Source of the DNA: a virus
DNA: 35,862 bases
Virus genome (UHGV): UHGV-0385955
Strand: one strand, 5' to 3'
The notes under the pieces are model-generated. The model worked only from the letters and a program-made list of their open reading frames with translations, was not told the DNA's origin and searched no databases. Shown piece after piece: positions 16,684 through 35,862 of the stretch (within the stretch, counting starts at the first letter, position 1; every line of letters begins with the position of its first letter). Position numbers and translations under genes: made by a program.

Positions 16684-16949
16684 TGTACTTCCACTCCTTT
16701 TTCTGAGGTTGCTGTGGGGATGATCTGGACGATGTTGCTCTTTCCACCACCGTAGGAACCGTACTGCAATACCTGTGCGGTCTGTGCCGGAATCAGTACG
16801 CTTTGTTCTTTTGTTGCGTCCCTTTCCAGAGATGCGTAAATATCACCATCCGTAAAATTCTTAACCAGAAATTCGGATGATGCTGTCTCAAATTCAAAAA
16901 TCAATGTTTCTTCCGCTGTCGGCTGTCTGATTACTTTTACTTTACTCAT
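16668..16949 (-). CDS. Hypothetical protein, 93 aa
   Basis: Its start overlaps the stop of the MuF-like gene. First gene of the inserted island. Confidence 0.5.
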   Translation of the reverse strand: MSKVKVIRQPTAEETLIFEFETASSEFLVKNFTDGDIYASLERDATKEQSVLIPAQTAQVLQYGSYGGGKSNIVQIIPTATSEKGVEVQCLKW

Positions 16950-21264: not shown

Positions 21265-21425
21265 CCGACTCACCACCTTTATAGCATAATAAAAGCACCC
21301 ATCTCTGGATGCTAAGAATGTAGGACTACTGCTGAAAGAATTAATAACGCCAACAAAAACCAAAATAACCAAATACACAATCAAAATTTATAAGAAAAAA
21401 GGAGGAACCTTGCAGTAGTCCACAA

Positions 21426-21498
21426 CGGGTATAGCAGGACTCGAACCTACGACACATCGGTTAACAGCCGATTGCTCTACCAACTGAGCTATACACCC
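21426..21498 (-). tRNA. tRNA-Asn (anticodon GTT)
   Basis: Hand-folded cloverleaf. Acceptor GGGTGTA / TATACCC. D-arm GCTC AGTTGGTA GAGC. Anticodon loop CTGTTAA. T-arm GTAGG TTCGAGT CCTGC. Discriminator G. No encoded CCA. Confidence 0.75.
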
Positions 21499-21731
21499 GT
21501 AGGATGCCTTTTATTGACATCCTTTACCCTATCCGCACTCGGGTACTGACACTAAATATAGATTGCTGAATCTATTTTTGTTTGTTTTGCAGATCTGCGG
21601 ATATCTGCGTTTTGTGATATCACTCCGTAGCACTTCCACGGCATTCCGGATTTTTAATATTTACCGTGATATGCTACTAAACCGTGTGCAGGGATCGAAC
21701 CTGCTTGTCCCAACTGACCACGGCATAGAAA

Positions 21732-21846: not shown

Positions 21847-22269
21847 CTATAAATCTTTAAGCTGTGCGCTTATAATCTGCGATACTCGCGCCTGGGTATA
21901 TCCAATTTCATCTGCGACTTTTTGCTGGGTTTTCCCCTCAAGATAGTGCAACTCAAATATCTCTTTAATCTCCGGATCATCAATCCCATTTATGTAGTCT
22001 TCGACTTCTTCTTGCTCTTTCAGGATCCGCAGCCTGTCCGCTTCTTTTCGCCTAATCTGCTGTCTTACATTCTCTTCTTCGTAAGGGTCATACATTTGTA
22101 CAGATGTTCTCACTTCGGTGTACGGAAAATCTGCACTGGATCCCGTTACCTTCCCCATGACAACAGTCGATTCCCGTTCACAGAGTTCTTGTATCTGATT
22201 CTCAATCCGGATAAGTCTATCTTTGTTTGGTTTGTACTTTTTCAGTGTTCTCTTGTCCACTGGCAACAC
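21847..22269 (-). CDS. Putative late-gene transcriptional activator (ArpU/RinA-type position) with a sigma-70 region-4-like HTH
   Basis: The C-terminus LEGKTQQKVADEIGYTQARVSQI resembles sigma region 4. It is the last early gene, immediately upstream of the tRNA and TerS. Confidence 0.6.
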   Translation of the reverse strand: MLPVDKRTLKKYKPNKDRLIRIENQIQELCERESTVVMGKVTGSSADFPYTEVRTSVQMYDPYEEENVRQQIRRKEADRLRILKEQEEVEDYINGIDDPEIKEIFELHYLEGKTQQKVADEIGYTQARVSQIISAQLKDL

Positions 22270-22444
22270 TCCCTTTCGTATCTACTCCCCATTTTCTTAA
22301 GCAATCCTCTACAGAGTACGCACCTCTTTGCATCCACTTTTTGGCATTCTCTGTTGGTTCATGTTCGGCCAGATCAGCAAAATGATCATCACGGTCTTGC
22401 TTCATCTCTTTCTTTCCGCGTCTGTGCTTTAAAGTCCCTCTCAT
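22217..22444 (-). CDS. Hypothetical basic protein, 75 aa. Overlaps the start of the downstream gene by 53 nt.
   Basis: ORF only. Uncertain. Confidence 0.3.
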   Translation of the reverse strand: MRGTLKHRRGKKEMKQDRDDHFADLAEHEPTENAKKWMQRGAYSVEDCLRKWGVDTKGSVASGQENTEKVQTKQR

Positions 22445-22451
22445 ATCTGTA

Positions 22452-22643
22452 TCACCTCCATAATCTCCGCACTATCCAATCCAAAAACACCACAAAAAGC
22501 AGTATCGGGAAGCATGCCGCTACTAAATAATCCTCACACTCCAGCTCCACATCCTCTTCCAATCCTGTCTTTAGGGCAATCACTGTTCCAAGCCCCAGGA
22601 TGTAATACAGGGCTAGGAATGCGATTGTGATTAAAATGTCCAT
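22452..22643 (-). CDS. Small membrane protein, two transmembrane segments. Probable start MDILITIAF at 22643.
   Basis: Hydrophobic segments. The chosen start leaves a 1-nt gap after the upstream gene. Confidence 0.4.
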   Translation of the reverse strand: MDILITIAFLALYYILGLGTVIALKTGLEEDVELECEDYLVAACFPILLFVVFLDWIVRRLWR

Positions 22644-22644
22644 G

Positions 22645-23082
22645 TTATTCCTCCTTGTATGGTTCTGGAAATGGCTGCCATGCAACAACTTCTTTCTTAT
22701 TTGCTTCTATGAACTCATTATAAAATTCTTCGTAAATATACCATCGATCGTCTCTAACTCTGTAAAAACCACACTTAACAGCTCCATATGATGTTTGCAC
22801 ATTCAGCAATGGATAATATTTACCATCACCAGCTTCCGGCAATTTATCACTTACCGGAATCCAACCGTTTTTACTAGGGACATTTGTGTCATTAGCCAAC
22901 TCTAAATACTTCTTCATTTTATGAATTGCTTGCACTATCACGCCATCATCACAATTGCATATACCATCTTCCACGTCACAGCAAGCACCTTCGCATTGAT
23001 TAAAGCATTTTTCATTTTCTTCTATTAGTTCTTTGATCGCTACAATTTCTTTTTCTTCCAAAATCTTCTCTAATACGTTCAT
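22645..23082 (-). CDS. DUF551-domain protein
   Basis: The C-terminus WIPVSDKLPE ... WQPFPEPYKEE matches the DUF551 signature common in phage early regions. Confidence 0.65.
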   Translation of the reverse strand: MNVLEKILEEKEIVAIKELIEENEKCFNQCEGACCDVEDGICNCDDGVIVQAIHKMKKYLELANDTNVPSKNGWIPVSDKLPEAGDGKYYPLLNVQTSYGAVKCGFYRVRDDRWYIYEEFYNEFIEANKKEVVAWQPFPEPYKEE

Positions 23083-23270
23083 TCCACATTCTCCTTATCC
23101 ACATACTTCTCTACGACATCCACTGCGCAAGTCAGCCCATAAATATAGCTTTCCAATTCTTCCGCTGTTTTGCTTGTTCCGTATCTTCGCTTTTCTTCTT
23201 TCAAAGTTTCGTAGGCGTCATTTTTCATGCTTTCGATTTCTTCCACGATTTTCTCTAATACGTTCATCAC
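23079..23270 (-). CDS. Hypothetical protein, 63 aa. It shares its first 9 residues (MNVLEKI.EE) with the downstream gene.
   Basis: 17-nt identical DNA at both gene starts. Confidence 0.5.
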   Translation of the reverse strand: MMNVLEKIVEEIESMKNDAYETLKEEKRRYGTSKTAEELESYIYGLTCAVDVVEKYVDKENVE

Positions 23271-23560
23271 TCCACCTCCAACAAATCAAGCCATTCTTCC
23301 AATGTCTCTTTTGTAATTTCCAACCACGAACCATCATCTACAGCATCAAGATGAACATGATCAGAACCACCAATCATCATGTGACCACTTTCGTCTAGCT
23401 CGTAAATTTTCCCTTCTTCAATCACAATTGTATCGTTTTCGATTAAGAAACCATCATCGTCGTATTTATCTACGCAGAAAGTTTTCTTGCACTTATATCT
23501 CTTACTCATTTTCCTTTCCTCCGTTCTGTCGCATCTGTTCAATGTAAATATCTGTTGCAC
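23267..23560 (-). CDS. Hypothetical protein. Likely start MSKRYKCKK at about 23509.
   Basis: ORF only. Acidic C-terminus. Confidence 0.4.
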   Translation of the reverse strand: MQQIFTLNRCDRTEERKMSKRYKCKKTFCVDKYDDDGFLIENDTIVIEEGKIYELDESGHMMIGGSDHVHLDAVDDGSWLEITKETLEEWLDLLEVE

Positions 23561-23687
23561 ACCTTACAATTTCTGGTTTCATGCCATCGTAATCAGTGCC
23601 TTTGTAGAAATTCTTGTTACACGATCTTTTAATCATGCACAGGATATCTTCAAATGTTTGTTCTCTCATCTTTTCGCTCCACTTCAT
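23502..23687 (-). CDS. Hypothetical protein, 61 aa
   Basis: ORF in the operon packing. Confidence 0.4.
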   Translation of the reverse strand: MKWSEKMREQTFEDILCMIKRSCNKNFYKGTDYDGMKPEIVRCATDIYIEQMRQNGGKENE

Positions 23688-23838
23688 TGTTGTATTTCAG
23701 GCACTTTCCATCCTTGTACGCTACGCATTTCTCTTTAATACACGGATTCAACACTGGTCTGACAAAATCTCCATTCCCAATAAGCATTGCTTTTACCTCT
23801 TCTTTTCCCGTTAAATCAGGGCAAAATAAAATCATCAC
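23650..23838 (-). CDS. Hypothetical protein, 62 aa, Cys-containing. GTG start.
   Basis: ORF only. Confidence 0.35.
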   Translation of the reverse strand: MMILFCPDLTGKEEVKAMLIGNGDFVRPVLNPCIKEKCVAYKDGKCLKYNNEVERKDERTNI

Positions 23839-23984
23839 TCCACCTCCTCATATTCCGGACACTCCACACAATACTCATACCGGTCCATTCTTGCACACTG
23901 CTCTTTGCACACTTCGTTTTCTGGGCATTCTATGCAGCAATAATCGTGTCCGCATATACTTGTTAATTTGCATCTTCCCATCAT
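23835..23984 (-). CDS. Small Cys-rich protein, 49 aa, with four CxxC-like pairs
   Basis: MMGRCKLTSICGHDYCCIECPENEVCKEQCARMDRYEYCVECPEYEEVE. Packed between neighbouring genes. Confidence 0.3.
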   Translation of the reverse strand: MMGRCKLTSICGHDYCCIECPENEVCKEQCARMDRYEYCVECPEYEEVE

Positions 23985-23986
23985 GG

Positions 23987-24355
23987 TTATTCCTCACTCC
24001 AATCTATTTTCTGTCCGCAATTCGGGCAGTAGAAATGTTCATATCCTTTTTCGCAAATATATTCACTTTTGCACGTAGGGCATTTAAAGTTAATGTCACC
24101 AAGTATGTAGTCCATTATATTCGGCTTCTTCGCCGTATCTCGCTCTTTCAGTTCCTGCATCTGCTCCAGCAGCTTTGCGCAATTGTTATATTGGTTCAAA
24201 ATATCGCACACAAACCGTCCCATCTTGCACTCTGCGCATTTATCTTCCAGTTGCTCTCCGCTTAGCTGGTTCGGATACTTACACAGGTTGTCGCAGATAT
24301 GCTCCATCATTTCCGTTGTGATCCCGTCCATCCATGTTTCTTCTGTTTTTGGCAT
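23987..24355 (-). CDS. Cys-rich zinc-finger protein, 122 aa
   Basis: CAECK, CPTC and CPNC motifs. Directly upstream is the PAPS-reductase-family gene. Confidence 0.5.
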   Translation of the reverse strand: MPKTEETWMDGITTEMMEHICDNLCKYPNQLSGEQLEDKCAECKMGRFVCDILNQYNNCAKLLEQMQELKERDTAKKPNIMDYILGDINFKCPTCKSEYICEKGYEHFYCPNCGQKIDWSEE

Positions 24356-24358
24356 TAG

Positions 24359-25243
24359 TCATTCCTCCGCAATAAAGTCTTCCATTCTCATTTGCCCTGG
24401 TATGTTTTCGTCTTCCATCCACCAAAGAAATACCTCTTCCCCTGTCGTCCACTTACATTCTTTTCCTCTTCGTTCACGTTCTTTCAACATCCTGTCGAAA
24501 GCATTTATATACAATTGCTTATACTTTGGAAAATCTGCAAACTCTTTGTAACGCTTCTTGCCTGCCATCGGACATCCGATGCAACCAACACGATCATATC
24601 CGCACTGGTACAGCTCGCACGTCTCTATTTTCTCGGAATTTATATATCCCCAGATATCACTATGCGTCCAATCTATGATAGGATTTACAATCATTTTTTT
24701 CTGCTGCATACATAGCTCACTCATCCGTCTTCGTGCATCGTTATCCTCCATCAGCATTATCTTCGTAAATTTTTCTTTCTCTTTTTGGGTTTGTCCGAGC
24801 TTTTCAAACTCTTCCCTTTTCAATCTGGAAGTACTTTCGTCCCATCTTACTCCGGTTGCGATATACCGGTTTGCACATCCAGTTTCTTTCAGCGTAGAGC
24901 AACAGTATCTTACAATTCTTGTCGGCGGGATAAGCTTTTCTGGAATTAAGCTCCACATGCTAATCAATTTTCCTTTATAGCGTGGTTTTTCTATTTCGCA
25001 CCTAATTCCATGCAGTTCCAGTTCTCGGAATACCTTCCGGATATGCCGAACTGTCTGTGGCGCATCTGCCGTTGTATGGCTGTTATGCACTTCAAACGGG
25101 ATTCCGGATTTCTTAAAAATCTCTAACATCACATCACTATCCTTTCCTCCGCTATACGTACAAACAAGCGGTCTACCATAGTGATGTAGACTCATTTCAC
25201 TTGCCATTTTAATTCTTTCGATTGCTTTTTTCTCTTTATCCAT
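24359..25243 (-). CDS. PAPS reductase-family PP-loop ATP pyrophosphatase (DndC/CysH-like fold)
   Basis: PP-loop motif VCTYSGGKDSDVML. 294 aa with a Cys-rich C-terminal half. Confidence 0.8.
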   Translation of the reverse strand: MDKEKKAIERIKMASEMSLHHYGRPLVCTYSGGKDSDVMLEIFKKSGIPFEVHNSHTTADAPQTVRHIRKVFRELELHGIRCEIEKPRYKGKLISMWSLIPEKLIPPTRIVRYCCSTLKETGCANRYIATGVRWDESTSRLKREEFEKLGQTQKEKEKFTKIMLMEDNDARRRMSELCMQQKKMIVNPIIDWTHSDIWGYINSEKIETCELYQCGYDRVGCIGCPMAGKKRYKEFADFPKYKQLYINAFDRMLKERERRGKECKWTTGEEVFLWWMEDENIPGQMRMEDFIAEE

Positions 25244-25317
25244 TTTCTCAGAAGCCCGGTATACCCTTGCCCCGGCCGGAGGCTGGCTCCTTTCTATTTT
25301 CGCTTATTTTTTATAAC

Positions 25318-25800
25318 CTACTGCAAATACCTCCGCATTAATATCCGGTTTGGATTCGACATCGCCCTGTTGAGCCGGCAACTGGTCCTCACCCAACCCT
25401 CGTGAAACTCCATGTAATTTGCAATGTTGCCAAAGATATCCTTGACCGAAGTTTCCTGCTTCTTCGACTCAGGCAGCATATCATTGTCTTTTAAAAAGTT
25501 TTTGAACGTTTCAATACTTGCATCGATTCCGCTCTCTTCGCTTATTGCTGCATAGATGTTCTGGATCGTAAGTCCGTATTCGATCATGCACTTAATTTCT
25601 CCCTTGTACGGTTCGTATTGTTTTCTTTTATTTTCCATTTTTCTTAACCACATCCTCTTGTTTGCTATTACCCTCTTTTTCACTTCTTTTCCAGTAATAT
25701 CCTCAAGTACTCTGCAGATATGCTCATCCGTGCATCCGAGTTTTACCATCTCTTCGATCTGGAACTTGTAGGGATCCAGAAAGTGTCCTGGTCTACTCAT
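25318..25800 (-). CDS. Hypothetical protein, 160 aa
   Basis: ORF. Possible N-terminal HTH-like segment. No family assigned. Confidence 0.55.
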   Translation of the reverse strand: MSRPGHFLDPYKFQIEEMVKLGCTDEHICRVLEDITGKEVKKRVIANKRMWLRKMENKRKQYEPYKGEIKCMIEYGLTIQNIYAAISEESGIDASIETFKNFLKDNDMLPESKKQETSVKDIFGNIANYMEFHEGWVRTSCRLNRAMSNPNRILMRRYLQ

Positions 25801-25925
25801 TTCCCTCTCACCCTATTCTTTCTCTTCCGCTTTGTGCTGCCGCGCGTAAACGCATCCATATTTCCGTGTCTCAATCCGGTAGACTGTTTCCTATAGACTC
25901 TAAAACCGTATCTTTTTCTGTTCAT
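25797..25925 (-). CDS. Small, highly basic ORF, 42 aa (MNRKRYGFRVYRKQSTGLRHGNMDAFTRGSTKRKRKNRVRGK)
   Basis: RBS AGGAGGCAAAC precedes the ATG. Its stop overlaps the downstream start. Confidence 0.25.
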   Translation of the reverse strand: MNRKRYGFRVYRKQSTGLRHGNMDAFTRGSTKRKRKNRVRGK

Positions 25926-25934
25926 GTTTGCCTC

Positions 25935-26666
25935 CTAACTGAAACTTACTTCCGGCTCTTCCTCTGGACATATTTCTCCACCTGCTTCCATTTCGTTTAT
26001 GATGATTTTCGTTCCCGCTCTTTGTAATCTCAGCAACAGCATGTCAAATTCCCCAAGGTATCTCAACGACTTAATGTCTACACATCCCAAACTGTCAAGT
26101 GTATACTCTTTCTCAAAATCCCATTTCGATATCGGAATTTCCATATTCAACTCTTCATCGTGTTCGTTTTCGAAAATGATTACCGCCCTATGCAGGGAGC
26201 TCCAAGTAGATCTTTCACACTCTTCTATTAGCATCTCGCAACTGACCGATTCGTAGTGTGGTCCATCGTCAAACTCCACTTCCAGACCAGTTGTACTGAT
26301 CTTCTTTTCGCACATTGCAATCCATGCATCAAACAGATCCGTGACTTCCATTTCTTTTTCTTCCTGCTTGATTGATAATTCCTTAAAATTTTCTAGAATC
26401 TTTTTATTCTCAATGCAAGCATCGGAATTTACGATTTCTGTAAGCACCGTATCCAACTTTGGAAGGTATTCCGAAAAATCATACTTCTCTATGTACGGCA
26501 CCATGACATCGTTTATCTTTTTCTTCAGTGCCTTTTCCGCATCTCCCCATCTAAACGCTGATCCTATTGCCGATTCTATCGATTCCTTAAATTTCTTTTT
26601 GAGTATTTCCTTTACTTCTTCCTCATAGAGACACTCCTGTGCCATTTTTAATAATTCTTCTTTCAT
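25935..26666 (-). CDS. Hypothetical protein, 243 aa
   Basis: ORF. Acidic. No family assigned. Confidence 0.55.
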   Translation of the reverse strand: MKEELLKMAQECLYEEEVKEILKKKFKESIESAIGSAFRWGDAEKALKKKINDVMVPYIEKYDFSEYLPKLDTVLTEIVNSDACIENKKILENFKELSIKQEEKEMEVTDLFDAWIAMCEKKISTTGLEVEFDDGPHYESVSCEMLIEECERSTWSSLHRAVIIFENEHDEELNMEIPISKWDFEKEYTLDSLGCVDIKSLRYLGEFDMLLLRLQRAGTKIIINEMEAGGEICPEEEPEVSFS

Positions 26667-26677
26667 TTTGCTCCTCC

Positions 26678-27547
26678 TTAATTCGAATTCAACAGCTGCT
26701 CTTCCAGAGAGTCCATGTCGTATTCTCTGCGCTCAAAGTTGTTTAGATTTCTGCTTACTGGCGGTTTTGCTGGCATTTTTTCCGTCTGCTCTTGGTTAAG
26801 ATAAACATCGAAATTACTGCCGAACAGGGTTTTTGGTCTTAGATATATCCTCATATCCTTAATGCCGCGCTGTAATTCCTCTTTTGTCGGCTTTCTGCCC
26901 CACTCATGGTATTTTTTATCAATCACCGTCTTAAAGTCATCCAGAGTGTATCCTTCATTGAATCTGGCTTTTATTTCCTTCTGGTTACTCTTAACATCCC
27001 ACCTTAGTTTCTTGCCTGTCTTTTCATTCAGGTAAGTTATGATCTCTTTGTACGGGACATATATATTATTATCTTTTTCTTTATCTTCTTCTTTATCTAT
27101 ATCTGAAACAGCGACGTCAGACGTTCTTTCAGACGACTTGTCAGACGATTTTTCGATCAAAGCTCTTTGTTTGGCTCTTCTTTCCTCTTGGTACAGCCTG
27201 TCACGCTCTTTTTTCCGTTCATAAGCATCCAATGTCTGGTGCTTATTCCAGTTCGGGATCGTGATTATTCCCTCCACTATCTCAATCATTTTAAATTGCT
27301 CAAACGCATTCAAAGCCAACTTTACAGTGGATTCATTCATTCTAAAGATTGTTGCCAGCATCTTGTCTGTGTAGGGAATCTTGTCATTCATCAGGAATAC
27401 ACCACCGTTATTCTTTTTCCCGGCAAGACATAGCAACTTGAACCAGACTGTTATAATTGCATAAGCATCCGGTAAACTCTCTATCAGCAATATCTTTTCA
27501 TCATCAAAGATATCCGTTGCTATCTTGATCCACTTCACCTCTGCCAT
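26678..27547 (-). CDS. Phage replisome organizer (Phage_rep_org_N domain plus conserved C-terminus)
   Basis: The N-terminus MAEVKWIKIATDIFDDEKILLIESLPDAYAIITVWFKLLCLAGK matches the replisome organizer N-terminal domain. Confidence 0.8.
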   Translation of the reverse strand: MAEVKWIKIATDIFDDEKILLIESLPDAYAIITVWFKLLCLAGKKNNGGVFLMNDKIPYTDKMLATIFRMNESTVKLALNAFEQFKMIEIVEGIITIPNWNKHQTLDAYERKKERDRLYQEERRAKQRALIEKSSDKSSERTSDVAVSDIDKEEDKEKDNNIYVPYKEIITYLNEKTGKKLRWDVKSNQKEIKARFNEGYTLDDFKTVIDKKYHEWGRKPTKEELQRGIKDMRIYLRPKTLFGSNFDVYLNQEQTEKMPAKPPVSRNLNNFERREYDMDSLEEQLLNSN

Positions 27548-27957
27548 TACTCATCCTCCGCAATATAGACCACCACGCAAGGTGTATCCGAGTACACTTT
27601 TTCAATCTCCAGACTGGTTACCTGCTTATCATCCGTATATGCGACTCCATTCAGGCCATCCAGAATGATTTTTGCAATGTTGTCTAAGTCAGGCTTCTTA
27701 TTCGGCTTCATTTCTCCTTTTAAAGCCCTATCCTTATTCTTCTTAGACCAGCTCTCTGGAATCGGAAATTTCGCTAAAATTCGAACTCTCAGAGGGATGT
27801 CCGTGTAAAGCACGCCTATACTCTGCTTGTAAATCCTTGCAACTTCCTTTTCGTATTTTTTGCTTTCGTCTGGCGTATATGTAATGACTTTAAATCCGGC
27901 TCTGCGGAATCTCGGTCTTGCTTTTCCAACCGGTTTGCCCGGAATTGTAATTACCAT
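27547..27957 (-). CDS. RusA-family Holliday junction resolvase
   Basis: Motif GKPVGKARPRF. 136 aa. Confidence 0.8.
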   Translation of the reverse strand: MVITIPGKPVGKARPRFRRAGFKVITYTPDESKKYEKEVARIYKQSIGVLYTDIPLRVRILAKFPIPESWSKKNKDRALKGEMKPNKKPDLDNIAKIILDGLNGVAYTDDKQVTSLEIEKVYSDTPCVVVYIAEDE

Positions 27958-27972
27958 TTATTCTCCTTTCTG

Positions 27973-27991
27973 CTCCCGGAATTACCGGGAG
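27973..27991 (-). other. Perfect 7-bp stem hairpin (CTCCCGG aatta CCGGGAG) immediately upstream of the RusA RBS
   Basis: Direct inspection. No U-tract. Confidence 0.35.
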
Positions 27992-28070
27992 ACAATGAAT
28001 CTGGCTTACTTAAGGTATTTGTGACGTACTGTGCAGCAGCCATGAACGGGTTACAATTTATAGCGAAAGG

Positions 28071-28451
28071 TTACCCTTTGCTAACATAGTGAAATTCTTG
28101 TCGGAACTGCTCTTCTGTTCCGTAGTGCTGCAAATAATACTCTTTGCAGCGTTTTCTTAAGTATCGGTCAACTTTTGATGCATTCTCCCCTGCCCTTGTT
28201 CCGTTTGGATGCAGGTCTGGTCTCAATGGAGCGATAAAACCATAATCCTCCGAAAGTTCAATTTCTTTCGATGTGTGACTAAAAACATGATGCCTCTCCA
28301 CTCCGTAAACTCCGGTGTACATGCAGTGATCCATATCCTCTGTGAATATGCTCCACAGCTTCTTTGGTCTGCCGGACGTCCTCTGATGACCTTTTTTCTT
28401 TTTCTTGCGCTTCGGCTTAGGGAATGCCATGTTACTGTAATCAATGCTCAC
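28071..28451 (-). CDS. Hypothetical protein with a basic N-terminus and a C..ERHH motif. Possibly a nuclease-like protein.
   Basis: KPKRKKKKKGHQRTSGRPKK followed by CMYTGVYGVERHHVF. Lies between NinB and RusA. No family confirmed. Confidence 0.5.
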   Translation of the reverse strand: MSIDYSNMAFPKPKRKKKKKGHQRTSGRPKKLWSIFTEDMDHCMYTGVYGVERHHVFSHTSKEIELSEDYGFIAPLRPDLHPNGTRAGENASKVDRYLRKRCKEYYLQHYGTEEQFRQEFHYVSKG

Positions 28452-28990
28452 AGTTCAATCCCCCATTTTTGTCTAAGCTCTTCTTTTTCATCTGGGGTCA
28501 AAAGGTCTGCATCTGGTATTCCAACCTCTCTGCAATCTTCCAACACGCCTTTGATGAGTCTGCTCATTTCTTTTGTGTTATACTTGCTTGACCCTTTGTA
28601 GCATTGCAGAGTGTGTAATGTTTCAGCTCTCCCTTTTAGGTCTTTTACTTCCTGCGCTCCACGATCTATCACAATCCGGAACACTGACTGTGCCAGATAG
28701 ATGTCTTTTTCCCTGAGCGGTATGTACTCAAAAGCACCGTGGGATTTTAATTCATTTAGGTACGCTTGCCATCTGGTAATATCCAGCTTGTCTGCTAATT
28801 TATCCAGCAACACCCACAAATAAGAGTTTGCATCAAGGCTTCTTTTTGCTCTGTATGGCTTTATTTCAAGCGTTAATTTCTCATAATCTTTCAACTCATC
28901 ATAGGCTTGTCGGAAGTCCTCTTCGGATTCGAATAGGATGGTGTGGCAATCTATCAAACGGCCTTTTAATTTTCCTGTGAATTTCATCAA
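28448..28990 (-). CDS. NinB/Orf-family recombination mediator
   Basis: KRSLDANSYLWVLLDKLA parallels lambda Orf RSLDQNRKLWACLGDVS. Confidence 0.65.
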   Translation of the reverse strand: MMKFTGKLKGRLIDCHTILFESEEDFRQAYDELKDYEKLTLEIKPYRAKRSLDANSYLWVLLDKLADKLDITRWQAYLNELKSHGAFEYIPLREKDIYLAQSVFRIVIDRGAQEVKDLKGRAETLHTLQCYKGSSKYNTKEMSRLIKGVLEDCREVGIPDADLLTPDEKEELRQKWGIEL

Positions 28991-29607
28991 TCATCACCGT
29001 AAGTCCTTTTTATTGTGCTTAACATTGTTGCAGCTTCTGTCTCGGTAAGTGTCTGCTCAGTCCTATTGTTTTCTCTCAACCATCGTTCAAGATTGATGCC
29101 GTGAGATACGCATAGATTCTTGAGAGTCTTGATTTTCGCTTCAGACGCTCTGTTTTCCCCCGTTTCCGGTATTTGAGCATACATCTTGTTGTATTCCTCT
29201 TTAAGCCACAAATCGAACCCTAAGCCGGTATGTATTGCTACGCACTTCACAAACGCCCTGCACATGCTGTTCCAGACTCTTTGCTGACTCATAGAGTTGT
29301 CTTTTACAGGGTTTGCCCCATTCATCACAGGTGTTTGCATCTCATATACTTCATCGTCTATAACAACACGGATTCTGGTTTCATAACACCTGTTTTCGTT
29401 TCCGTTTTTGTCTTTAAACACTGCCTTTGTCATTCTTAAGCTACTTCCTGTTTCTGGATCTGGAATCGGTGTAAAATAAACATTTTCAGCGCCGTTTTTG
29501 TGCAATAAATCAATGCACATCGCCCAGTTTAAGTAATCCATGCCATCTCTTTTTTCAAGATATGGTTTCACATCTACTTTTCTCATTTCTCCATAGCTTT
29601 TAAGCAT
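28987..29607 (-). CDS. Single-strand annealing protein, Sak/Rad52-like. The track ORF extends to 29730. The internal start at 29607 is preferred (RBS GTGAGGAA).
   Basis: KVDVKPYLEKRDGMDYLNWAMCIDLL resembles the Sak/Rad52 annealing-domain signature. It lies next to NinB and RusA. Confidence 0.65.
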   Translation of the reverse strand: MLKSYGEMRKVDVKPYLEKRDGMDYLNWAMCIDLLHKNGAENVYFTPIPDPETGSSLRMTKAVFKDKNGNENRCYETRIRVVIDDEVYEMQTPVMNGANPVKDNSMSQQRVWNSMCRAFVKCVAIHTGLGFDLWLKEEYNKMYAQIPETGENRASEAKIKTLKNLCVSHGINLERWLRENNRTEQTLTETEAATMLSTIKRTYGDD

Positions 29608-29788
29608 TGCAAGATTCCTCACTTTCTTCATGTACCCAATTACCGGAGTAAAACCATTCCACCAGCATCTCTTTAAACTCTTCCCGTTCATCCGGTGTCC
29701 CGTGTAAGCATCTTTCCAGCGCATATTCAAACGCCCGATCTTCTGTTACTACCGTGTCTTTCTCCGGTCCGATACCTACATACATCAT
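29600..29788 (-). CDS. Hypothetical protein, 62 aa
   Basis: ORF only. Confidence 0.4.
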   Translation of the reverse strand: MMYVGIGPEKDTVVTEDRAFEYALERCLHGTPDEREEFKEMLVEWFYSGNWVHEESEESCNA

Positions 29789-30767: not shown

Positions 30768-31508
30768 TTATGCTGCATTTAAAAACTTGTTGATAAAATA
30801 CTGCTGACCTTTACCTGTTACTTTGGTTGTTTTGTTAATCCGAACAGAGCCATCTGGATTGACTGCTGTTGTCTCTTTCACTTCAAACAGCCCTAAATTC
30901 ATAGATTTCTGTGTGGGCGAGTTCCATTCAGTTCCTTTTCTCTTACTCAGATACCCATTTTCACGCAACCACTCAAATAAGCGCTTCTGCCCTGTTTCAA
31001 CGCCGTTCTGTTTCAAAATCTTTGCCAGATCGCCGATTAAGATGGAAGTATGACTGGTAGCAACAGCATCTGCAAATATCGCTTTCGGCTTCATTTCCTC
31101 AATCTGTGCTGTCTGCTCTTCAATGGTCTTCTGCGCTTCTAAGACCGCCAGTGCGAGGAGTTCTTTGCCCTGTGGCTGTTGCAAGTTGTACCTACCTGTC
31201 TTTCTGAGTACGGGAAGAACTTCCGCTGTTACCCAGTGTTTGAACTTTTTAGCATTCGGAAGTTTACTTGAAAGAATCAAACCGTAAAGTCCTGACTCAT
31301 TGATAAGAATTCCTTTTGTGCCATTCACGGTGAACGAATCGTTCAGCGTCCTGTCTTCTTCATCTACATGGTCACGAAGTGCTTTTTGTGGATTGCTATA
31401 TCCCAAAATTACTGCCACATCTTTCCCCACAAACCACGGTTCGTTGTCAATCGTTACTGTTCTGATTTTACCGAACTCTTCGTTATTGAAAATTTTTAAT
31501 TCGCTCAT
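30768..31508 (-). CDS. Phage antirepressor with Bro-N and KilA-C/ANT domains
   Basis: The N-terminus FNNEEFGKIRTVTIDNEPWFVGKDVAVILGY matches Bro-N. The C-terminal half is ANT/KilAC-like. Confidence 0.85.
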   Translation of the reverse strand: MSELKIFNNEEFGKIRTVTIDNEPWFVGKDVAVILGYSNPQKALRDHVDEEDRTLNDSFTVNGTKGILINESGLYGLILSSKLPNAKKFKHWVTAEVLPVLRKTGRYNLQQPQGKELLALAVLEAQKTIEEQTAQIEEMKPKAIFADAVATSHTSILIGDLAKILKQNGVETGQKRLFEWLRENGYLSKRKGTEWNSPTQKSMNLGLFEVKETTAVNPDGSVRINKTTKVTGKGQQYFINKFLNAA

Positions 31509-31520
31509 TTTTCCTCCAAT

Positions 31521-31910
31521 CTATGAAAAAATAAAATTCAACAGTTTGTCTATTCCGCTTTCTTGATTTGTTCGCCTGGTTTTTACAACTCTTTTTGCAT
31601 CGAATATTCTTTTCAATATCTGCTTTGATTCTTCGAAATCTATAGAGTACCATTCACCGTTTATGCGATTATCTTTATACATTCTTTTAAATTCGGCTTC
31701 TATCTCAAAAGGGTTCGAGCAATATCCAGTTACATAGCACTTGTCTATTACCTTTCCGCTCTGATTTTGAACTACTTTTAATCGCCTTTCAAACTCTTCC
31801 GTAACGCCAATTTTCACGGAATTATCAACGGATTTTAGCAAATATACAACTTTCGCTTTCTCCATCTCAGCCACTTCCCGGCTGTCTAATTTCTGTTGTA
31901 ACTCGTTCAA
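31521..31910 (-). CDS. T5orf172 (GIY-YIG-like) domain protein
   Basis: VVYLLKSVDNSVKIGVTEEFERRLKVV ... GEWYSIDFEE fits the T5orf172/MUG113 pattern. Confidence 0.6.
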   Translation of the reverse strand: MNELQQKLDSREVAEMEKAKVVYLLKSVDNSVKIGVTEEFERRLKVVQNQSGKVIDKCYVTGYCSNPFEIEAEFKRMYKDNRINGEWYSIDFEESKQILKRIFDAKRVVKTRRTNQESGIDKLLNFIFS

Positions 31911-32036
31911 TACCTTTTACCTCCTATTTTTATTGCCGTCGTAACCTCCGTGGCGGGATTGCTTTCTTTTCGTTTATCTCCTATACTGTAAATACAGGGC
32001 ACTGCCATGCCTGAGTATTACGAAAGGAGCGATTTT

Positions 32037-32264
32037 ATGAGACGTTGTAATTCGCCATTTAACGGCAATCGCTATGTGCTTAATAAAAACACTGGTGAAA
32101 TCCATGATTTAGACCGCGAAACCTCGTGCTGCCGCATAAATGATATAAAGTCCGAACATATCTTTAATTGCAGTTCCTATGAGGAAGCTGTTGTTTTTTC
32201 TTCCATGCTTGACATCAGAAGAAACGGATGCGCTCACTGCATGCCAGAGAAAAACAACGGATAA
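32037..32264 (+). CDS. Small Cys/His-rich protein, 75 aa, on the + strand inside the early region
   Basis: RBS GAAAGGAG precedes the ATG at 32037. Its 3' end overlaps the convergent minus-strand gene by 31 nt. Confidence 0.35.
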   Translation: MRRCNSPFNGNRYVLNKNTGEIHDLDRETSCCRINDIKSEHIFNCSSYEEAVVFSSMLDIRRNGCAHCMPEKNNG

Positions 32265-32665
32265 CCATTAAGAGCTGCTTCTTTTAAATGAGGTAGCTCT
32301 TTTTCAGGTATCTCCTCTTCAAGAAGTTCTGCAAATGCTTCAGGAGTTTTTTTGACTTCGATCAAGCCAAATACCATATTAGAAAACTCTTTCTCTCTAG
32401 TAATGGATTTCAATACATCGAATTTTTTTATCTTTCTATCCTTATTTTCTTCGTCAAGACCTATAAACTCATCGATATATTTTTCGATACGTTCAACCCC
32501 CTGAATTTCTTCGCGCAACTCTTCTGGTTGTTCAAGAATTTTTTTTGCAGTATTCCTGATTAAATTCTCCGTATTTTCCTTCTGAATTTTGATGTCATCT
32601 TCACACTTTTTGATGCGATACAGCAAGCAATCCCATGATCGTCTTGAAACCCACATCTTTCTCAC
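32234..32665 (-). CDS. Hypothetical protein, 143 aa, first gene of the minus-strand early operon
   Basis: ORF directly downstream of the minus-strand early promoter. No HTH recognised. Confidence 0.55.
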   Translation of the reverse strand: MRKMWVSRRSWDCLLYRIKKCEDDIKIQKENTENLIRNTAKKILEQPEELREEIQGVERIEKYIDEFIGLDEENKDRKIKKFDVLKSITREKEFSNMVFGLIEVKKTPEAFAELLEEEIPEKELPHLKEAALNGYPLFFSGMQ

Positions 32666-32735
32666 CTCGCTTTCTTTTTCCCCGTCATGCCGATAGGTCA
32701 GCGTTTTTTTGTTTTGGTTTGTGTTGTTGCTTTCT

Positions 32736-32749
32736 TGTTGATGAACAAA
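32736..32749. promoter_or_regulatory. Operator-like palindrome TTGTT-gatg-AACAA at the transcription start of the minus-strand early promoter
   Basis: Same half-sites as the second palindrome at 32808..32823. Confidence 0.5.
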
Positions 32750-32778
32750 TCATAACTCGTTTTATTTTGTTTGTCAAT
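32750..32778 (-). promoter_or_regulatory. Early lytic promoter, TTGACA-N17-TATGAT (minus strand)
   Basis: On the + strand TGTCAA lies at 32773..32778 and ATCATA at 32750..32755. Confidence 0.6.
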
Positions 32779-32807
32779 AAGATTTTTAAAAAAATTAAAT
32801 ATTTTTC

Positions 32808-32823
32808 TTGTTGACTAACAAGT
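32808..32823. promoter_or_regulatory. Operator-like palindrome CTTGTT-gact-AACAAG overlapping the -35 of the + strand promoter
   Basis: Perfect 6-bp inverted repeat with a 4-bp spacer. It shares the TTGTT / AACAA half-sites. Confidence 0.5.
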
Positions 32824-32840
32824 ATAATAATGATATACTG
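32812..32840 (+). promoter_or_regulatory. Repressor promoter, TTGACT-N17-TATACT with extended -10 TGaTATACT
   Basis: RBS AGGAGG lies 7 nt before the TTG start of the repressor. Confidence 0.55.
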
Positions 32841-32862
32841 ATTTCAGAAAGGAGGAAGCCTT

Positions 32863-33246
32863 TTGGAATTAAATATAGGAGAAAGAATTGAAATCTTAAG
32901 AAAAGACTTAAGTATGTCCAGGAGAGTTTTTGGAGAAAGGCTTGGCGTCAGTGAAAGCGTTATTGTTAATATAGAATACGATCGCTTGAAACGCCCAGAT
33001 CAAAAAGAATCCTTATATAAGTTGATTTGTAAAGAGTTCAATGTGAACGAAGAATGGTTAAGAACCGGAAACGGTGAAATGTTTATCCAATTAACAAGAG
33101 ACCAGTTGATTACAGACTTTGCTGCTGATCTTATAATGGAAAATGATACATTTAAAAAAAGATTAGTAGAAGCTCTTGCAAAGCTGGATGAAAGTGAATG
33201 GGATGTCCTAGAAAAGCTCGCAGAGAGCTTAATTAAAAAAGACTAG
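32863..33246 (+). CDS. CI-like prophage repressor. XRE-family HTH with a C-terminal domain. TTG start.
   Basis: HTH IGERIEILRKDLSMSRRVFGERLGVSESVIVNIE. Transcribed divergently from the lytic operon with operators between them. Confidence 0.7.
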   Translation: MELNIGERIEILRKDLSMSRRVFGERLGVSESVIVNIEYDRLKRPDQKESLYKLICKEFNVNEEWLRTGNGEMFIQLTRDQLITDFAADLIMENDTFKKRLVEALAKLDESEWDVLEKLAESLIKKD

Positions 33247-33550
33247 GGTTTCCCCTAGCCTAAAAGCTTTATGCAGAATCGGTACACAAGTTCCAACACC
33301 TCAATATTGTTGGACTTGTTGACCAATTCGATGATAAGTTTTTTGTAGTCCATTTCGCAATCCCCCTAACTGCAAAAACACATGTTCGAAATCCCTGAAC
33401 ATATAATACTATTTCAGTGGATAAAAATCAATATTTTGTTCGAACATTTGTTCTGTTATTTTTTGGTACTTATGTACCTCTCTATTAAGTTAACAATCTA
33501 AAATCGGGAAACTTACGCGAAAATGGACAATCGTCCCATATCTGGGACAC

Positions 33551-33748
33551 TTATTGATATGGAGAGTCGATAAGGTCAGAAATTCGGACTTTTAAGCCCT
33601 TGGCAAGCAATTCCAGCGTGTCGGCTGTCGGTGATATTTCACCGTTTGCAATACGGTTAATCGTTGATTTTGATATTCCGGTCGCAATGGATACTTGCCG
33701 GACTGATAGATTTTTCTTAAGCATGATCTTATCGAGTAGTATTTTCAT
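33551..33748 (-). CDS. Small XRE-family HTH regulator, about 65 aa. The track ORF is 33551..33859. Start MKILLDKIM at 33748.
   Basis: Canonical HTH_3 motif LSVRQVSIATGISKSTINRIANGE. Confidence 0.65.
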   Translation of the reverse strand: MKILLDKIMLKKNLSVRQVSIATGISKSTINRIANGEISPTADTLELLAKGLKVRISDLIDSPYQ

Positions 33749-33876
33749 AGTGGTTTTATTGTAGTATATTCCAGATCTGGAAACTACAGGTAAATAATGG
33801 TAATAATACGATATAACCGCTTCGGCGTTTATATAGAGTAAAGTGGTGTTAAGGTACATAAGAAAGTGAGGAAACT

Positions 33877-34341
33877 ATGAAAAAGAAAATTGTAGCAATG
33901 CTATTAGCGGGAATTATGGCATTATCAATTACAGCATGTGGTGGGGATGCCGAACCATCCAAAGACACCGAAACAAAGACAGAAGAAACAACAGACCAGA
34001 AAGAAGAGAAGAAAGAGCCTTTGAATTTAACTGGAACATGGAAATCAGAAGAAGTCGAAGGGTCATATCAAGAAGCTACGATTTCTGATGATGTAATAGA
34101 AATAAATTGGGTGTCTGATGGAGGAAATACAAAATCACTTTACTGGGCTGGCACTTACGTTGCGCCAACCGAGCCAACTAACGATTACGCATGGACATCG
34201 GAAAACGATAAAGAAAAAACAGGGATGGCGTTACTAGCATCAAGTGACGATACAAAAGAATTTACATACAAAGACGGTGTGATTAGTTATGAAGCGTCCG
34301 CTATGGGAACTACAAAAAAGGTCGAGTTAACCAAAAAATAA
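33877..34341 (+). CDS. Prophage lipoprotein (Ltp/Sie-like candidate)
   Basis: Signal peptide MKKKIVAMLLAGIMALSITAC with lipobox ITAC. RBS AAAGTGAGGAAACT. Lies between the repressor and the integrase. Confidence 0.8.
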   Translation: MKKKIVAMLLAGIMALSITACGGDAEPSKDTETKTEETTDQKEEKKEPLNLTGTWKSEEVEGSYQEATISDDVIEINWVSDGGNTKSLYWAGTYVAPTEPTNDYAWTSENDKEKTGMALLASSDDTKEFTYKDGVISYEASAMGTTKKVELTKK

Positions 34342-34371
34342 AGCATTGAATTAAGAAAGAAGGAACATACA

Positions 34372-34746
34372 TTGATTGATTTTCAGAACAAAAAAGTATT
34401 CAAATTAAGCAAAGGAAAAGAAAAGAACATTCCGAGAGAAGTTTTCAGCTTGCTTATAACTGATGAAGAAGTGGCCGGGTATTACTCTTCGATGAGAGAC
34501 TTCGTTGTTTTTACAAACAAAAGAATTATTGCATGCAACGTGCAAGGTATTACAGGATCTAAAAAAGATTATACATCGTTGCCATATTCAAAAATGCAAG
34601 CGTTTTCGGTTGAAACTTCTGGTACTTTCGATATGGACTCTGAACTCACTGTTTGTTTTAGTGGATTAGGAACAGTGAAATTTGATTTCACCTCGAACTC
34701 AGATGTGCAATCTATAAACAGACTTATAGCGTCACACGTTTTATAA
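34372..34746 (+). CDS. Bacterial PH-domain (bPH) protein, 124 aa. TTG start.
   Basis: VVFTNKRIIACNVQG ... LPYSKMQAFSVE resembles the bPH fold family. Confidence 0.55.
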   Translation: MIDFQNKKVFKLSKGKEKNIPREVFSLLITDEEVAGYYSSMRDFVVFTNKRIIACNVQGITGSKKDYTSLPYSKMQAFSVETSGTFDMDSELTVCFSGLGTVKFDFTSNSDVQSINRLIASHVL

Positions 34747-34927
34747 AATAAAAACCGCCCCAGTGCTACCAACACCGGGACGGCAATACATATCCGAAGA
34801 TATGCGATTGAAATCCAAGAATATTGTATCATCTTCGGAGCAGTCATGCAAGCGGAACATCAGTTCGCACGTTGGCTGTTATTTTTATACTCATTTTTAA
34901 ATACTATTTACAAGGGAGTGATGCAAA

Positions 34928-35862
34928 ATGCAAGAGAAAATACTAAGATGCGCCATCTATATCCGTGTCTCAACGTTTGAGCAAAGTGTACACGGGAAGT
35001 CACTGCAAGCACAGAAAGAATGCCTGGAGCAATACGCAACAGACAACAATATGTCTATAGTAGGTGTCTATGCGGACGAGGGAAAGACTGCCAGAAAAGA
35101 ATTGAAGAAAAGAAAAGCCATACACGCTCTTGTAGAGGACGTAAAAAGGGATAAAATTGATGTGATAATTTTCTGGAGACTCGACAGATGGTTTCGAAAT
35201 CTGTCAGATTTCTATAAGGTCCAGGATGTACTTGATGAGCATGGAGTGCGTTGGATCTCGGTTTCCGAGCCAGGAATAAACATGGAGACCAGAGACGGAC
35301 GATTGCAGTTAAATGTAGTGCTGTCGATCGGTCAAAACGAAGTAGACACCACATCCGAGCGAATTAAATTTGTGAATGAAGCATCTATAAGACAGAAAAA
35401 GCTAATATTTGGAGATGCAAATATGCCTTTTGGTTATAAAACAGGTGTTGTAGATGGAAAGAAATGCATGGTTAAAGATTCGGAAACAGAACACATGGTG
35501 GAAGATTTTTTTGAATATTTTAGAAATCATAACTCCAAGAAGGGCGCTATCCGGTACATGCAGGAAACCTATGGAATTGATTTTAGCTATGGCATGTTAC
35601 GGACGATGTTATCCAGCGAATTTTATAAAGGGACGTACAGAGGATACCCTTATTGTCCAGCATACCTGTCAGAAAAAGAATGGGATGAGATGCAAACTAT
35701 ATCGAAAAGAAATATTAAAAACACGCCGTCTGGTAGAATATACCTATTTACAGGTTTGATGCGCTGTCCTGTGTGCGGACAGAAATTAGTTGGCACCGGA
35801 TGCTCATCAATTATCAACCGTAAAACCGGAGAAAAAAGAACATACTGCTACTACCGTTGCAA
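34928..35862 (+). CDS. Large serine recombinase (integrase), N-terminal part: catalytic, recombinase and zinc-ribbon domains. It runs off the window end and continues at 1..463.
   Basis: Catalytic motif AIYIRVSTFEQ. Zinc ribbon LMRCPVCGQKL...YCYYRC. RBS AAGGGAG. No stop before the window end. Confidence 0.9.
   Translation, partial: MQEKILRCAIYIRVSTFEQSVHGKSLQAQKECLEQYATDNNMSIVGVYADEGKTARKELKKRKAIHALVEDVKRDKIDVIIFWRLDRWFRNLSDFYKVQDVLDEHGVRWISVSEPGINMETRDGRLQLNVVLSIGQNEVDTTSERIKFVNEASIRQKKLIFGDANMPFGYKTGVVDGKKCMVKDSETEHMVEDFFEYFRNHNSKKGAIRYMQETYGIDFSYGMLRTMLSSEFYKGTYRGYPYCPAYLSEKEWDEMQTISKRNIKNTPSGRIYLFTGLMRCPVCGQKLVGTGCSSIINRKTGEKRTYCYYRC

What the first reader, a model, noticed from the sequence alone, without database searches (positions are those of the whole stretch)
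34928..35862. Integrase ORF crosses the window boundary in frame, so the window is a circularly permuted, complete phage genome
The serine recombinase ORF beginning at 34928 has 311 codons plus 2 nt (aa) at the window end. Base 1 (c) completes AAC, and frame 2 then runs open to the TAA at 461..463. The domain order is continuous: the zinc ribbon CPVCGQK...YCYYRC at the window end is followed by coiled-coil sequence at the window start. Together they give a ~465-aa LSR, which is a normal size. With the full structural, replication and lysis gene complement present, this argues the window is a circular ~35.9-kb phage genome linearised inside int. It does not look like a prophage flanked by host DNA.
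Basis: seen in the sequence. Interest (0 to 1): 0.7.

Follow-up and report, generated by a model that had tools for sequence, protein, structure and literature searches.

The report
Circular phage genome cut inside integrase
The window is one complete, circular copy of a temperate gut-bacterium (Mediterraneibacter/Ruminococcus gnavus) phage whose linear representation happens to be cut inside its serine-integrase gene. This is an ordinary assembly outcome, but it let me define the phage's attachment site and its bacterial target gene.

Summary
The ORF from 34928 runs off the window end, base 1 completes codon 312 (AAC), and it continues to TAA 461-463, giving 465 aa. Chance is excluded: 1 of 20,000 shuffles stays open.

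The joined protein is a real large serine recombinase (LSR):
- The Pfam zinc-ribbon hit spans the junction.
- More than 100 homologs of 462-466 aa align end to end.
- The predicted fold matches Bxb1, PhiC31 and Listeria integrases.

Independent assemblies join the two ends. The exact junction 34-mer occurs in 19 public contigs, and RG-TP1 and a 100%-identical prophage show no base missing or extra.

The window is collinear around the whole circle with Ruminococcus phage RG-TP1. It carries packaging, head, tail, lysis, replication and lysogeny modules.

It also holds an intact attP (470-515, central TT 492-493), 29 nt after the int stop. attP, an empty attB, and both hybrid junctions were all read. 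The target is codon 79 of an NMT1-like ABC substrate-binding lipoprotein gene of M. gnavus. No host DNA is present.

"Circularly permuted" holds only as an arbitrary cut of a circular map. This is a new member of a known kind, of low interest.

The parts
34928..35862 (+). 5' part of the large serine recombinase (integrase) gene. It holds codons 1-311 plus the first 2 nt of codon 312, covering the catalytic domain (S15), the recombinase domain and the first half of the zinc ribbon (C280, C283, C307, C311).
1..463 (+). 3' part of the same gene. Base 1 completes N312, followed by the rest of the zinc ribbon, the coiled-coil helices (aa 328-405) and the C-terminal tail. The stop codon TAA is at 461-463.
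470..515 (.). attP core. Imperfect inverted-repeat arms 470-491 and 494-515 (17/22 matching) flank the central dinucleotide TT at 492-493. The crossover is confined to 491-496 by a polymorphism at 497.
533..727 (-). Small ORF (64 aa) next to attP. It is 97% identical to RG-TP1 gp41 and matches no family. Its function is unknown; a role as a recombination directionality factor is untested speculation.
839..1786 (+). Two plus-strand cargo genes between attP and the lysis module: an unknown 141-aa protein and a 163-aa HTH_3 regulator. Both are absent from RG-TP1.
2107..3579 (-). Lysis module: Amidase_2 endolysin 2107-2844, holin 2997-3245, hemolysin-like protein 3259-3579.
3613..21384 (-). Virion and packaging module. 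Tail fiber 3613-6114, Dit 6114-7583, tape measure 7580-9910, tail and head-completion genes, major head 13174-14031, scaffold 14059-14610, minor head 16946-18148, portal 18149-19516, TerL 19494-20828, TerS 20797-21384.
   Evidence: (up to 98% aa identity to RG-TP1 proteins).
21425..21499 (-). Phage-borne tRNA-Asn (GTT).
   Evidence: The region is shared with RG-TP1.
21847..29730 (-). Early, replication and recombination region. Sigma-like regulator 21847-22269, PAPS-reductase-like 24359-25243, phrog_2600 25935-26666, DnaD-like replisome organizer 26678-27547, RusA 27547-27957, NinB 28448-28990, Sak-like annealing protein 28987-29730.
30768..34746 (.). Lysogeny and immunity region. Ant anti-repressor 30768-31508(-), T5orf172/MUG113 31521-31910(-), HTH repressor-like 32863-33246(+), HTH 33551-33859(-), lipoprotein 33877-34341(+), bPH_1 protein 34372-34746(+).
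34747..34895 (.). Conserved structured noncoding block directly upstream of int. Hairpin 1 is a minus-strand intrinsic terminator (34784-34754). Hairpin 2 (CCGAAGAT...ATCTTCGG) is invariant. Hairpin 3 is followed by a T-run on the plus strand.

Best explanation
The window is one complete unit of a circular (attP-form) genome of a temperate siphovirus of Mediterraneibacter (Ruminococcus) gnavus, related to phage RG-TP1. Its linear representation was opened at an arbitrary point that falls inside the integrase gene.

The integrase is a 465-aa large serine recombinase. Its attP lies 29 nt downstream of its stop codon: TTGTACTAAGTGTTTAGCCCCA-TT-TGGGGCAGTATAATTAGTACAA, window 470-515.

The enzyme is inferred to work like other large serine recombinases (mechanism taken from established knowledge of the family):
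- Dimers bind attP and attB.
- They synapse through the coiled-coil motifs.
- They make 2-nt staggered cuts at the central TT.
- They rotate subunits and religate.

This inserts the ~35.9-kb genome at codon 79 of an NMT1/THI5-like ABC substrate-binding lipoprotein gene. The gene is split and is restored on excision.

Shown here: the junction continuity, the domain architecture, the attP, attB, attL and attR sequences, and the target gene. Inferred: catalysis, directionality control by an unidentified directionality factor, and the packaging mode.
For: ORF and chance:
- The ORF is continuous across the junction and chance is excluded.

Protein evidence:
- The Zn_ribbon_recom hit at aa 273-339 spans the junction.
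- More than 100 full-length homologs at 68-97% identity cover 100% of the protein.
- N312 and its flanking Cys, Asp and His residues are conserved.
- The AF2 model and Foldseek match 9dxd/9dxh, Bxb1 9iu2, 4kis and PhiC31 9rah with E 1e-14 to 1e-9.

Junction contiguity in independent sequences:
- The exact junction 34-mer occurs in 19 independent contigs.
- RG-TP1 and MT836489 each match in a single piece across the junction.
- RG-TP1 adjacency is exact.
- L015 is 100% identical on both sides and contiguous.

Genome completeness:
- The window is collinear with RG-TP1 around the whole circle. RG-TP1's true length is 35,889 bp after removing its 141-bp assembly overlap.
- All modules are annotated.

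Att sites:
- attP was read in the window, RG-TP1, L016, L020 and L026.
- attL-type junctions were read in 8 contigs and attR-type junctions in 11.
- An empty attB was read in L054 inside an intact 343-aa gene.
- The polymorphism at 497 segregates with the P' arm.
- Homologous LSRs in five other Lachnospiraceae lineages abut the same gene at the same codon, in both orientations. The central dinucleotide is TT in one orientation and AA in the other.
Against: - No reads are available, so physical circularity of this particular molecule is inferred from sequence logic and from independent assemblies of relatives.
- The Pfam Recombinase domain is just below its gathering score (20.7 vs 21.1 bits).
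- The AF2 model has moderate confidence (mean pLDDT 72.7). It was made for a 97%-identical homolog, because the joined protein could not be submitted.
- No recombination directionality factor was identified.
- The packaging type is undetermined, because TerL relatives are at most 33% identical apart from RG-TP1.
Confidence: 0.93

Rival explanations
1. The window is an integrated prophage, or a piece of one, with host DNA at one or both ends. On this view the in-frame continuation across the ends is coincidental.
For: Close relatives do occur integrated in 91-135 kb bacterial contigs.
Against: - Integrated copies break at window 492-496, not at the window ends, and the window carries the uninterrupted attP.
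- The two ends are adjacent in 19 contigs and in RG-TP1.
- Chance is about 5e-5.
- No segment of the window matches the host flanks.
Confidence: 0.01
2. The circle is an assembly or curation artefact. It could be a chimera of two related phages, a collapsed tandem prophage, or an in-silico circularised prophage. It would then not represent a real single molecule.
For: - Related phages are highly mosaic. For example, L041 is 99.6% identical over 3543-7755 but only ~79-83% identical in the lysis region.
- Metagenome assemblers can merge strains.
Against: - Gene order is collinear with the isolated phage RG-TP1 around the entire circle, and the size is almost the same (35,862 vs 35,889 bp).
- The junction is 100% identical to an independent assembly.
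- A prophage trimmed at its att sites would end at 492/493, not inside int.
- A collapsed tandem prophage would still yield the correct unit genome.
Confidence: 0.04
3. The element is an extrachromosomal phage-plasmid that does not integrate, and its recombinase serves as a multimer resolvase.
For: A circular map with a serine recombinase is formally compatible with this reading.
Against: - attL and attR hybrids of this very attP with a chromosomal gene are found in many contigs, including one 100% identical at int.
- No partition or plasmid replication genes were detected among the annotated ORFs.
- The protein has the full integrase C-terminal domains.
Confidence: 0.02

Closest known systems
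Ruminococcus phage RG-TP1 (PQ571303.1; Cluster D R. gnavus phages, PMC13435783)
   Same: - It has the same circular gene order and nearly the same size.
- The integrase is 93% identical and attP is almost the same (one A/G difference).
- Portal, TerL and minor head proteins are 96-97% identical.
- The RG-TP1 record is also an arbitrarily cut circle. It has a 141-bp overlap and a primase ORF across its ends.
   Different: - Only 59% of the window aligns by blastn, at roughly 72-98% identity.
- The replication module (25633-29757), much of the tape measure and the lysogeny genes differ.
- The window has two extra genes (839-1786) between attP and the lysis module.
- RG-TP1's integrase is annotated 'hypothetical protein' with a longer 534-aa ORF.
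Characterised large serine integrases: Listeria A118/LI (4kis), Bxb1 (9iu2), PhiC31 (9rah), TP901-1 (3bvp)
   Same: - It has the same domain order: catalytic domain, recombinase domain, zinc ribbon with an embedded coiled coil.
- attP is about 46 bp, with an imperfect inverted repeat and a non-palindromic central dinucleotide.
- attB lies inside a conserved host gene.
   Different: - Sequence identity is only 11-18% over the structural alignments. By sequence, only the catalytic domain matches PDB entries.
- Activity, site length requirements and the directionality factor are untested.
Gene-splitting prophages using LSRs (B. subtilis SPbeta SprA/spsM; my own knowledge)
   Same: The prophage interrupts a host coding sequence, and precise excision would restore it. 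The intact gene exists in non-lysogens.
   Different: There is no evidence here that excision is developmentally or conditionally regulated, or that the SBP gene has a phenotype.
Cluster A R. gnavus phages phiRg507T2_3, phiRg519T2, phiRgPS_6 (PMC10072058)
   Same: They share the host species and the tail fiber, Dit and lysis genes. They also share the ~150-nt noncoding block directly upstream of int.
   Different: They use tyrosine integrases with a 21-bp intergenic attB (PMC10072058). Most other genes are unrelated at the DNA level.

Membership tests
Large serine recombinase (phage serine integrase) | N-terminal resolvase/invertase catalytic domain with a nucleophilic serine | tested here: met
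   PF00239 scores 5.1e-27 over aa 9-148. S15 in YIRVST, R13, R84 and R87 are invariant in 28 homologs. The sequence matches 3guv and TP901-1 3bvp.
Large serine recombinase (phage serine integrase) | Recombinase domain (RD, PF07508) after the long alpha-E helix | tested here: inconclusive
   The Pfam hit at aa 186-261 scores 20.7 bits, just under the 21.1 gathering score. Two homolog clusters carry a precomputed PF07508 hit. The AF2 model aligns to the 4kis RD-ZD chain at E 8e-10, but with low TM because of domain flexibility.
Large serine recombinase (phage serine integrase) | Zinc-ribbon domain with four Cys ligands | tested here: met
   PF13408 scores 33.2 bits against a cut-off of 25.3, over aa 273-339. 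C283, C307 and C311 are invariant, and C280 is at least 90% conserved.
Large serine recombinase (phage serine integrase) | Coiled-coil motif embedded in the zinc-ribbon domain | tested here: met
   The AF2 model of the 97%-identical P0001 has helices 328-363 and 366-405, with pLDDT about 70-90. It gives full-length alignments to LSR-DNA complexes. This is a prediction only.
Large serine recombinase (phage serine integrase) | Short attP and attB sites with imperfect inverted repeats around a 2-bp crossover, and hybrid attL/attR products | tested here: met
   attP arms match 17/22 around TT. attP, attB, attL and attR were all read, and each hybrid is exactly P-left+B-right or B-left+P-right. Homologs with AA in place of TT are inserted in the opposite orientation.
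Large serine recombinase (phage serine integrase) | Unidirectional integration, with excision requiring a directionality factor | not testable with these tools
   No RDF family matched. Small ORFs near attP (533-727) have no hits.
Complete circular temperate phage genome (attP form) | The two ends of the linear record are adjacent with no missing or duplicated bases | tested here: met
   L015 is 100% identical and contiguous across the junction (546/547). RG-TP1 adjacency is exact. No terminal repeat is present.
Complete circular temperate phage genome (attP form) | All essential modules are present and no host DNA is included | tested here: met
   Packaging, head, tail, lysis, replication/recombination and lysogeny genes are all present. 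attP is intact and host flanks are absent.
Circularly permuted, terminally redundant virion DNA (headful packaging) | Variable ends in virion DNA reads, or a pac-type terminase clade | not testable with these tools
   TerL has only a Terminase_6N hit. Its relatives outside RG-TP1 are at most 33% identical. No reads are available.

The most novel reading that the evidence does not exclude
The most novel reading concerns the ~150-nt structured noncoding block directly upstream of int (34747-34895). It is conserved in R. gnavus phages whether they carry a serine or a tyrosine integrase, and it could be a portable int-control module.

Its minus-strand terminator would stop late transcripts that, only in the circular attP form, run from the lysis genes across attP and antisense through int. 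Its plus-strand terminator-like hairpin would gate read-through from the lysogeny operon.

Int expression would then depend on genome topology (integrated versus circular), by analogy with lambda sib retroregulation. I know of no description of this for gut Lachnospiraceae phages.
Probability: 0.15. Interest if true: 0.45.

Novelty: new member of a known kind. Interest (0 to 1): 0.2.

Why it matters
For annotation, the int gene must be joined across the record ends, and the contig can be treated as a complete genome and re-oriented.

Beyond that, the att analysis fills a small gap. The 2026 survey of R. gnavus phages says that integration sites of the serine-integrase (Cluster D/RG-TP1) phages were not identified, so true lysogeny could not be proven (PMC13435783).

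The public assemblies examined here show bona fide integration at codon 79 of an NMT1-like substrate-binding lipoprotein gene. They also give attP and attB sequences that could be tested directly as a genome-engineering tool for R. gnavus and related Lachnospiraceae.

Tried and rejected
I used the 97%-identical homolog P0001 for the structure instead.
- The PDB sequence search found only the catalytic domain. The C-terminal domains needed a fold comparison.
- Rfam found no family for the int-upstream block. Only sub-threshold Spot_42 and L10_leader hits appeared, which I treat as noise. RNAalifold gave three hairpins but almost no covariation (term -0.19), so a structured-RNA claim is not established.
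- The TerL tblastn search did not resolve the packaging type.
- A minus-strand sRNA promoter that I saw by eye near 34883-34918 failed the scan criteria and is not conserved in Cluster A phages, so I dropped it.
- My greedy ORF picking chose some wrong-strand ORFs in the lysis region. I corrected these with Pfam and PHROG hits.

Full report
**Observation**

An ATG at 34928, preceded by a Shine-Dalgarno-like AAGGGAG and by upstream in-frame stops, opens a frame that reaches base 35862 after 311 codons plus AA. Base 1 (C) completes AAC, and the frame stays open to TAA at 461-463, giving 465 aa. The other two frames at the window start close at codons 5 and 14. Only 1 of 20,000 shuffles of the first 463 nt stays open in the needed frame. 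The window has no terminal direct repeat.

**Is the joined protein real?**

- Pfam finds Resolvase (aa 9-148, 5e-27), Recombinase (aa 186-261, 20.7 bits, just under the 21.1 cut-off) and Zn_ribbon_recom (aa 273-339, 6.7e-8). The last hit spans the junction at aa 311/312.
- A search of 5.8 billion proteins returns more than 100 homologs of 462-466 aa. They cover 100% of the query at 68-97% identity.
- In a 28-sequence alignment the junction codon N312 is at least 90% conserved. It lies between invariant C307/C311, encoded at the window end, and D317/C320/H324, encoded at the window start.
- The tools would not accept the joined sequence for structure prediction. I therefore modelled P0001, which is 97% identical with no gaps.
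- The model has mean pLDDT 72.7. It shows the catalytic domain, a helical recombinase domain, beta-strands 288-310 for the zinc ribbon, and then two long helices (328-363 and 366-405).
- Foldseek against the PDB ranks full-length serine integrase-DNA complexes first: 9dxd/9dxh/9y66 at 1e-14 and Bxb1 9iu2 at 5e-14. These are followed by the Listeria LSR C-terminal domain-attP complex 4kis (8e-10) and PhiC31 (9rah).
- Sequence-only PDB matches cover just the catalytic domain.

**Are the two ends contiguous in nature?**

- The closest phage record is Ruminococcus phage RG-TP1, induced from Mediterraneibacter gnavus.
- A 3.76-kb query built across the junction hits RG-TP1 and a fecal virome contig, each in one ungapped piece.
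- In pairwise blastn, window 34743-35862 matches RG-TP1 26546-25433 and window 2-713 matches 25431-24723. Not one base is missing or extra.
- The exact 34-mer made of the last 17 and first 17 bases occurs in 7 IMG/VR contigs and 12 metagenome contigs.
- One of these, L015, is 100% identical to the window for about 500 nt on each side and is contiguous across the junction.
- The RG-TP1 record is itself an arbitrarily opened circle. It has a 141-bp terminal overlap and a 678-aa open reading segment, matching the DNA primase/helicase annotated at both record ends (gp1, gp61), that crosses its ends. Its true length is 35,889 bp against 35,862 bp here.

**Is it a complete phage with no host DNA?**

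The window is collinear with RG-TP1 around the entire circle, with 59% aligned by blastn. The differences are confined to the replication module, the tape measure, some lysogeny genes and two extra genes at 839-1786.

Annotation transfer and HMM searches give the following gene set:
- Packaging and head: TerS, TerL, portal, minor head, scaffold and major head proteins.
- Tail: tail completion, major tail, tape measure, Dit and tail fiber.
- Lysis: holin and amidase endolysin.
- Replication and recombination: DnaD-like replisome organizer, RusA, NinB and a Sak-like annealing protein.
- Regulation and lysogeny: Ant, HTH regulators, a lipoprotein and a bPH_1 protein.

**The attachment site**

Mapping the fetched contigs on the window showed that many lose homology at window ~496, 33 nt after the int stop. 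Several of these contigs are 91-135 kb long and therefore bacterial.

The four site sequences are as follows.

| Site | Source | Sequence |
|---|---|---|
| attP | window, RG-TP1, L016, L020, L026 | ...TTGTACTAAGTGTTTAGCCCCA TT TGG(G/A)GCAGTATAATTAGTACAA... |
| attL-type (int side) | eight integrated contigs | same left arm, then TT TGGAGCCGACAAAACGATGACTGC... |
| attR-type (far side) | eleven contigs | ...CTCGTCACAGGA TT TGG(A/G)GCAGTATAATTAGTACAA |
| attB (empty) | L054, positions 3211-3274 | GCATTGAACTGGAACTCGTCACAGGA TT TGGAGCCGACAAAACGATGACTGCTG |

- Joining the two host flanks gives a 343-aa NMT1/THI5-like substrate-binding lipoprotein (Pfam NMT1, 4e-26).
- That protein exists intact at 100% identity (P0121). 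At 97% identity it is named an ABC transporter substrate-binding protein of Mediterraneibacter gnavus (P0122).
- An unoccupied site was read in L054. The TT falls in codon 79.
- The attP arms (470-491 and 494-515) match 17/22 as an inverted repeat.
- One prophage (UViG_3300045988_017801) has an int region identical to the window's. In it, the A/G difference at window 497 stays with the P' arm, which confines the crossover to 491-496.
- LSR homologs of 58-73% identity occur in Dorea, Eubacterium, Muricomes, Sporofaciens and other Lachnospiraceae. They abut the same gene at the same codon.
- In three of these homologs (L004, L005, L012) the prophage is in the opposite orientation, and the junction reads ...CCCCA AA TCC... 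instead of ...CCCCA TT TGG.... This is what the central-dinucleotide polarity rule of serine integrases predicts. That rule is established knowledge of the family and was not tested here.

**Mechanism**

Shown here: the window is the attP form, and natural attL and attR hybrids and an empty attB exist.

Inferred from the family: integrase dimers on attP and attB synapse, cut at TT with 2-nt overhangs, rotate and religate. Insertion truncates the lipoprotein gene after codon ~80 (the attR side reads ...VTGFGAV*). Excision would restore the gene and should need a directionality factor, which I could not identify.

**Literature**

Cluster A R. gnavus phages use tyrosine integrases and a 21-bp intergenic attB (PMC10072058). 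A 2026 survey places RG-TP1 with 22 serine-integrase phages in Cluster D and states that integration sites were not identified (PMC13435783). The att sites defined here appear to be new detail for this group, but they are fully conventional for the enzyme family.

**Verdict**

The only caveats are these:
- 'Circularly permuted' can be claimed only for the representation, not for virion DNA.
- The packaging type is unresolved.
- Physical circularity of this exact molecule still rests on inference, because no reads are available.

A gene crossing the ends of a circular phage contig is routine. The phage is a new member of a known group, and interest is low. The side observations are listed separately.

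Noticed in passing
window 34747-34895; also L051-L053 (2501-2656), L004, L006: A ~150-nt noncoding block sits immediately upstream of int and is 81-88% conserved. It also occurs in Cluster A phages, where the int downstream is a tyrosine recombinase and the upstream genes differ. It contains a minus-strand intrinsic terminator (34784-34754), an invariant hairpin (CCGAAGAT...ATCTTCGG), and a plus-strand hairpin followed by TTATTTTT just before the int RBS. The fold z-score is -3.2, covariation is weak, and there is no Rfam family.
   Followed up: partly
L004 11390-11450, L005 2929-2990, L012 4305-4365: LSR homologs in other Lachnospiraceae target the same codon of the same SBP gene but are inserted in the opposite orientation. 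Their junction carries AA where this phage has TT. This looks like a natural illustration of central-dinucleotide polarity.
   Followed up: partly
L022 (OGQE01003595.1) around 5431-6254: One metagenome contig has a truncated copy of this int and a different junction (GCCCCATT|CCGTTCCGACACC). Its flank shares a CCGACA motif at the same distance as in attB. It could be a secondary (pseudo-attB) integration or a rearrangement.
   Followed up: partly
L008 (Muricomes MAG) 5876-6145 and ~11412-12212: The N- and C-terminal halves of the SBP gene lie only ~5.2 kb apart around an LSR homolog. This suggests a small remnant or satellite-like element rather than a full prophage.
   Followed up: no
window 21425-21499 (-): A phage-encoded tRNA-Asn (GTT) lies between TerS and the late regulator. 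The region is shared with RG-TP1, where it is not annotated.
   Followed up: partly
window 14631-14695 (-): An Rfam GP20-b RNA motif (48.6 bits, gathering score 36.2) lies directly upstream of the scaffold protein gene.
   Followed up: no
L003 (PQ571303.1) ends; gp42 24973-26577: The RG-TP1 GenBank record has a 141-bp terminal duplication and a primase/helicase ORF split across its ends. Its serine integrase is annotated 'hypothetical protein' with a probably over-extended 534-aa start.
   Followed up: yes
window 839-1786 (+): Two plus-strand genes sit between attP and the endolysin: an unknown 141-aa protein and an HTH_3 regulator of 163 aa. They are absent from RG-TP1 and look like a moron or cargo insertion at the prophage end.
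   Followed up: partly
window 24359-25243 (-) and 31521-31910 (-): There is a PAPS-reductase-like gene (phrog_424, 3e-42) in the early region and a T5orf172/MUG113-domain gene in the lysogeny region. The roles of both are unknown.
   Followed up: no
window 33877-34746 (+): A lipoprotein (lipobox LSITAC) and a bPH_1-domain protein lie just upstream of int. The positional counterpart in phiRg507T2_3 is annotated as a superinfection exclusion protein. These are likely lysogen-expressed genes.
   Followed up: no
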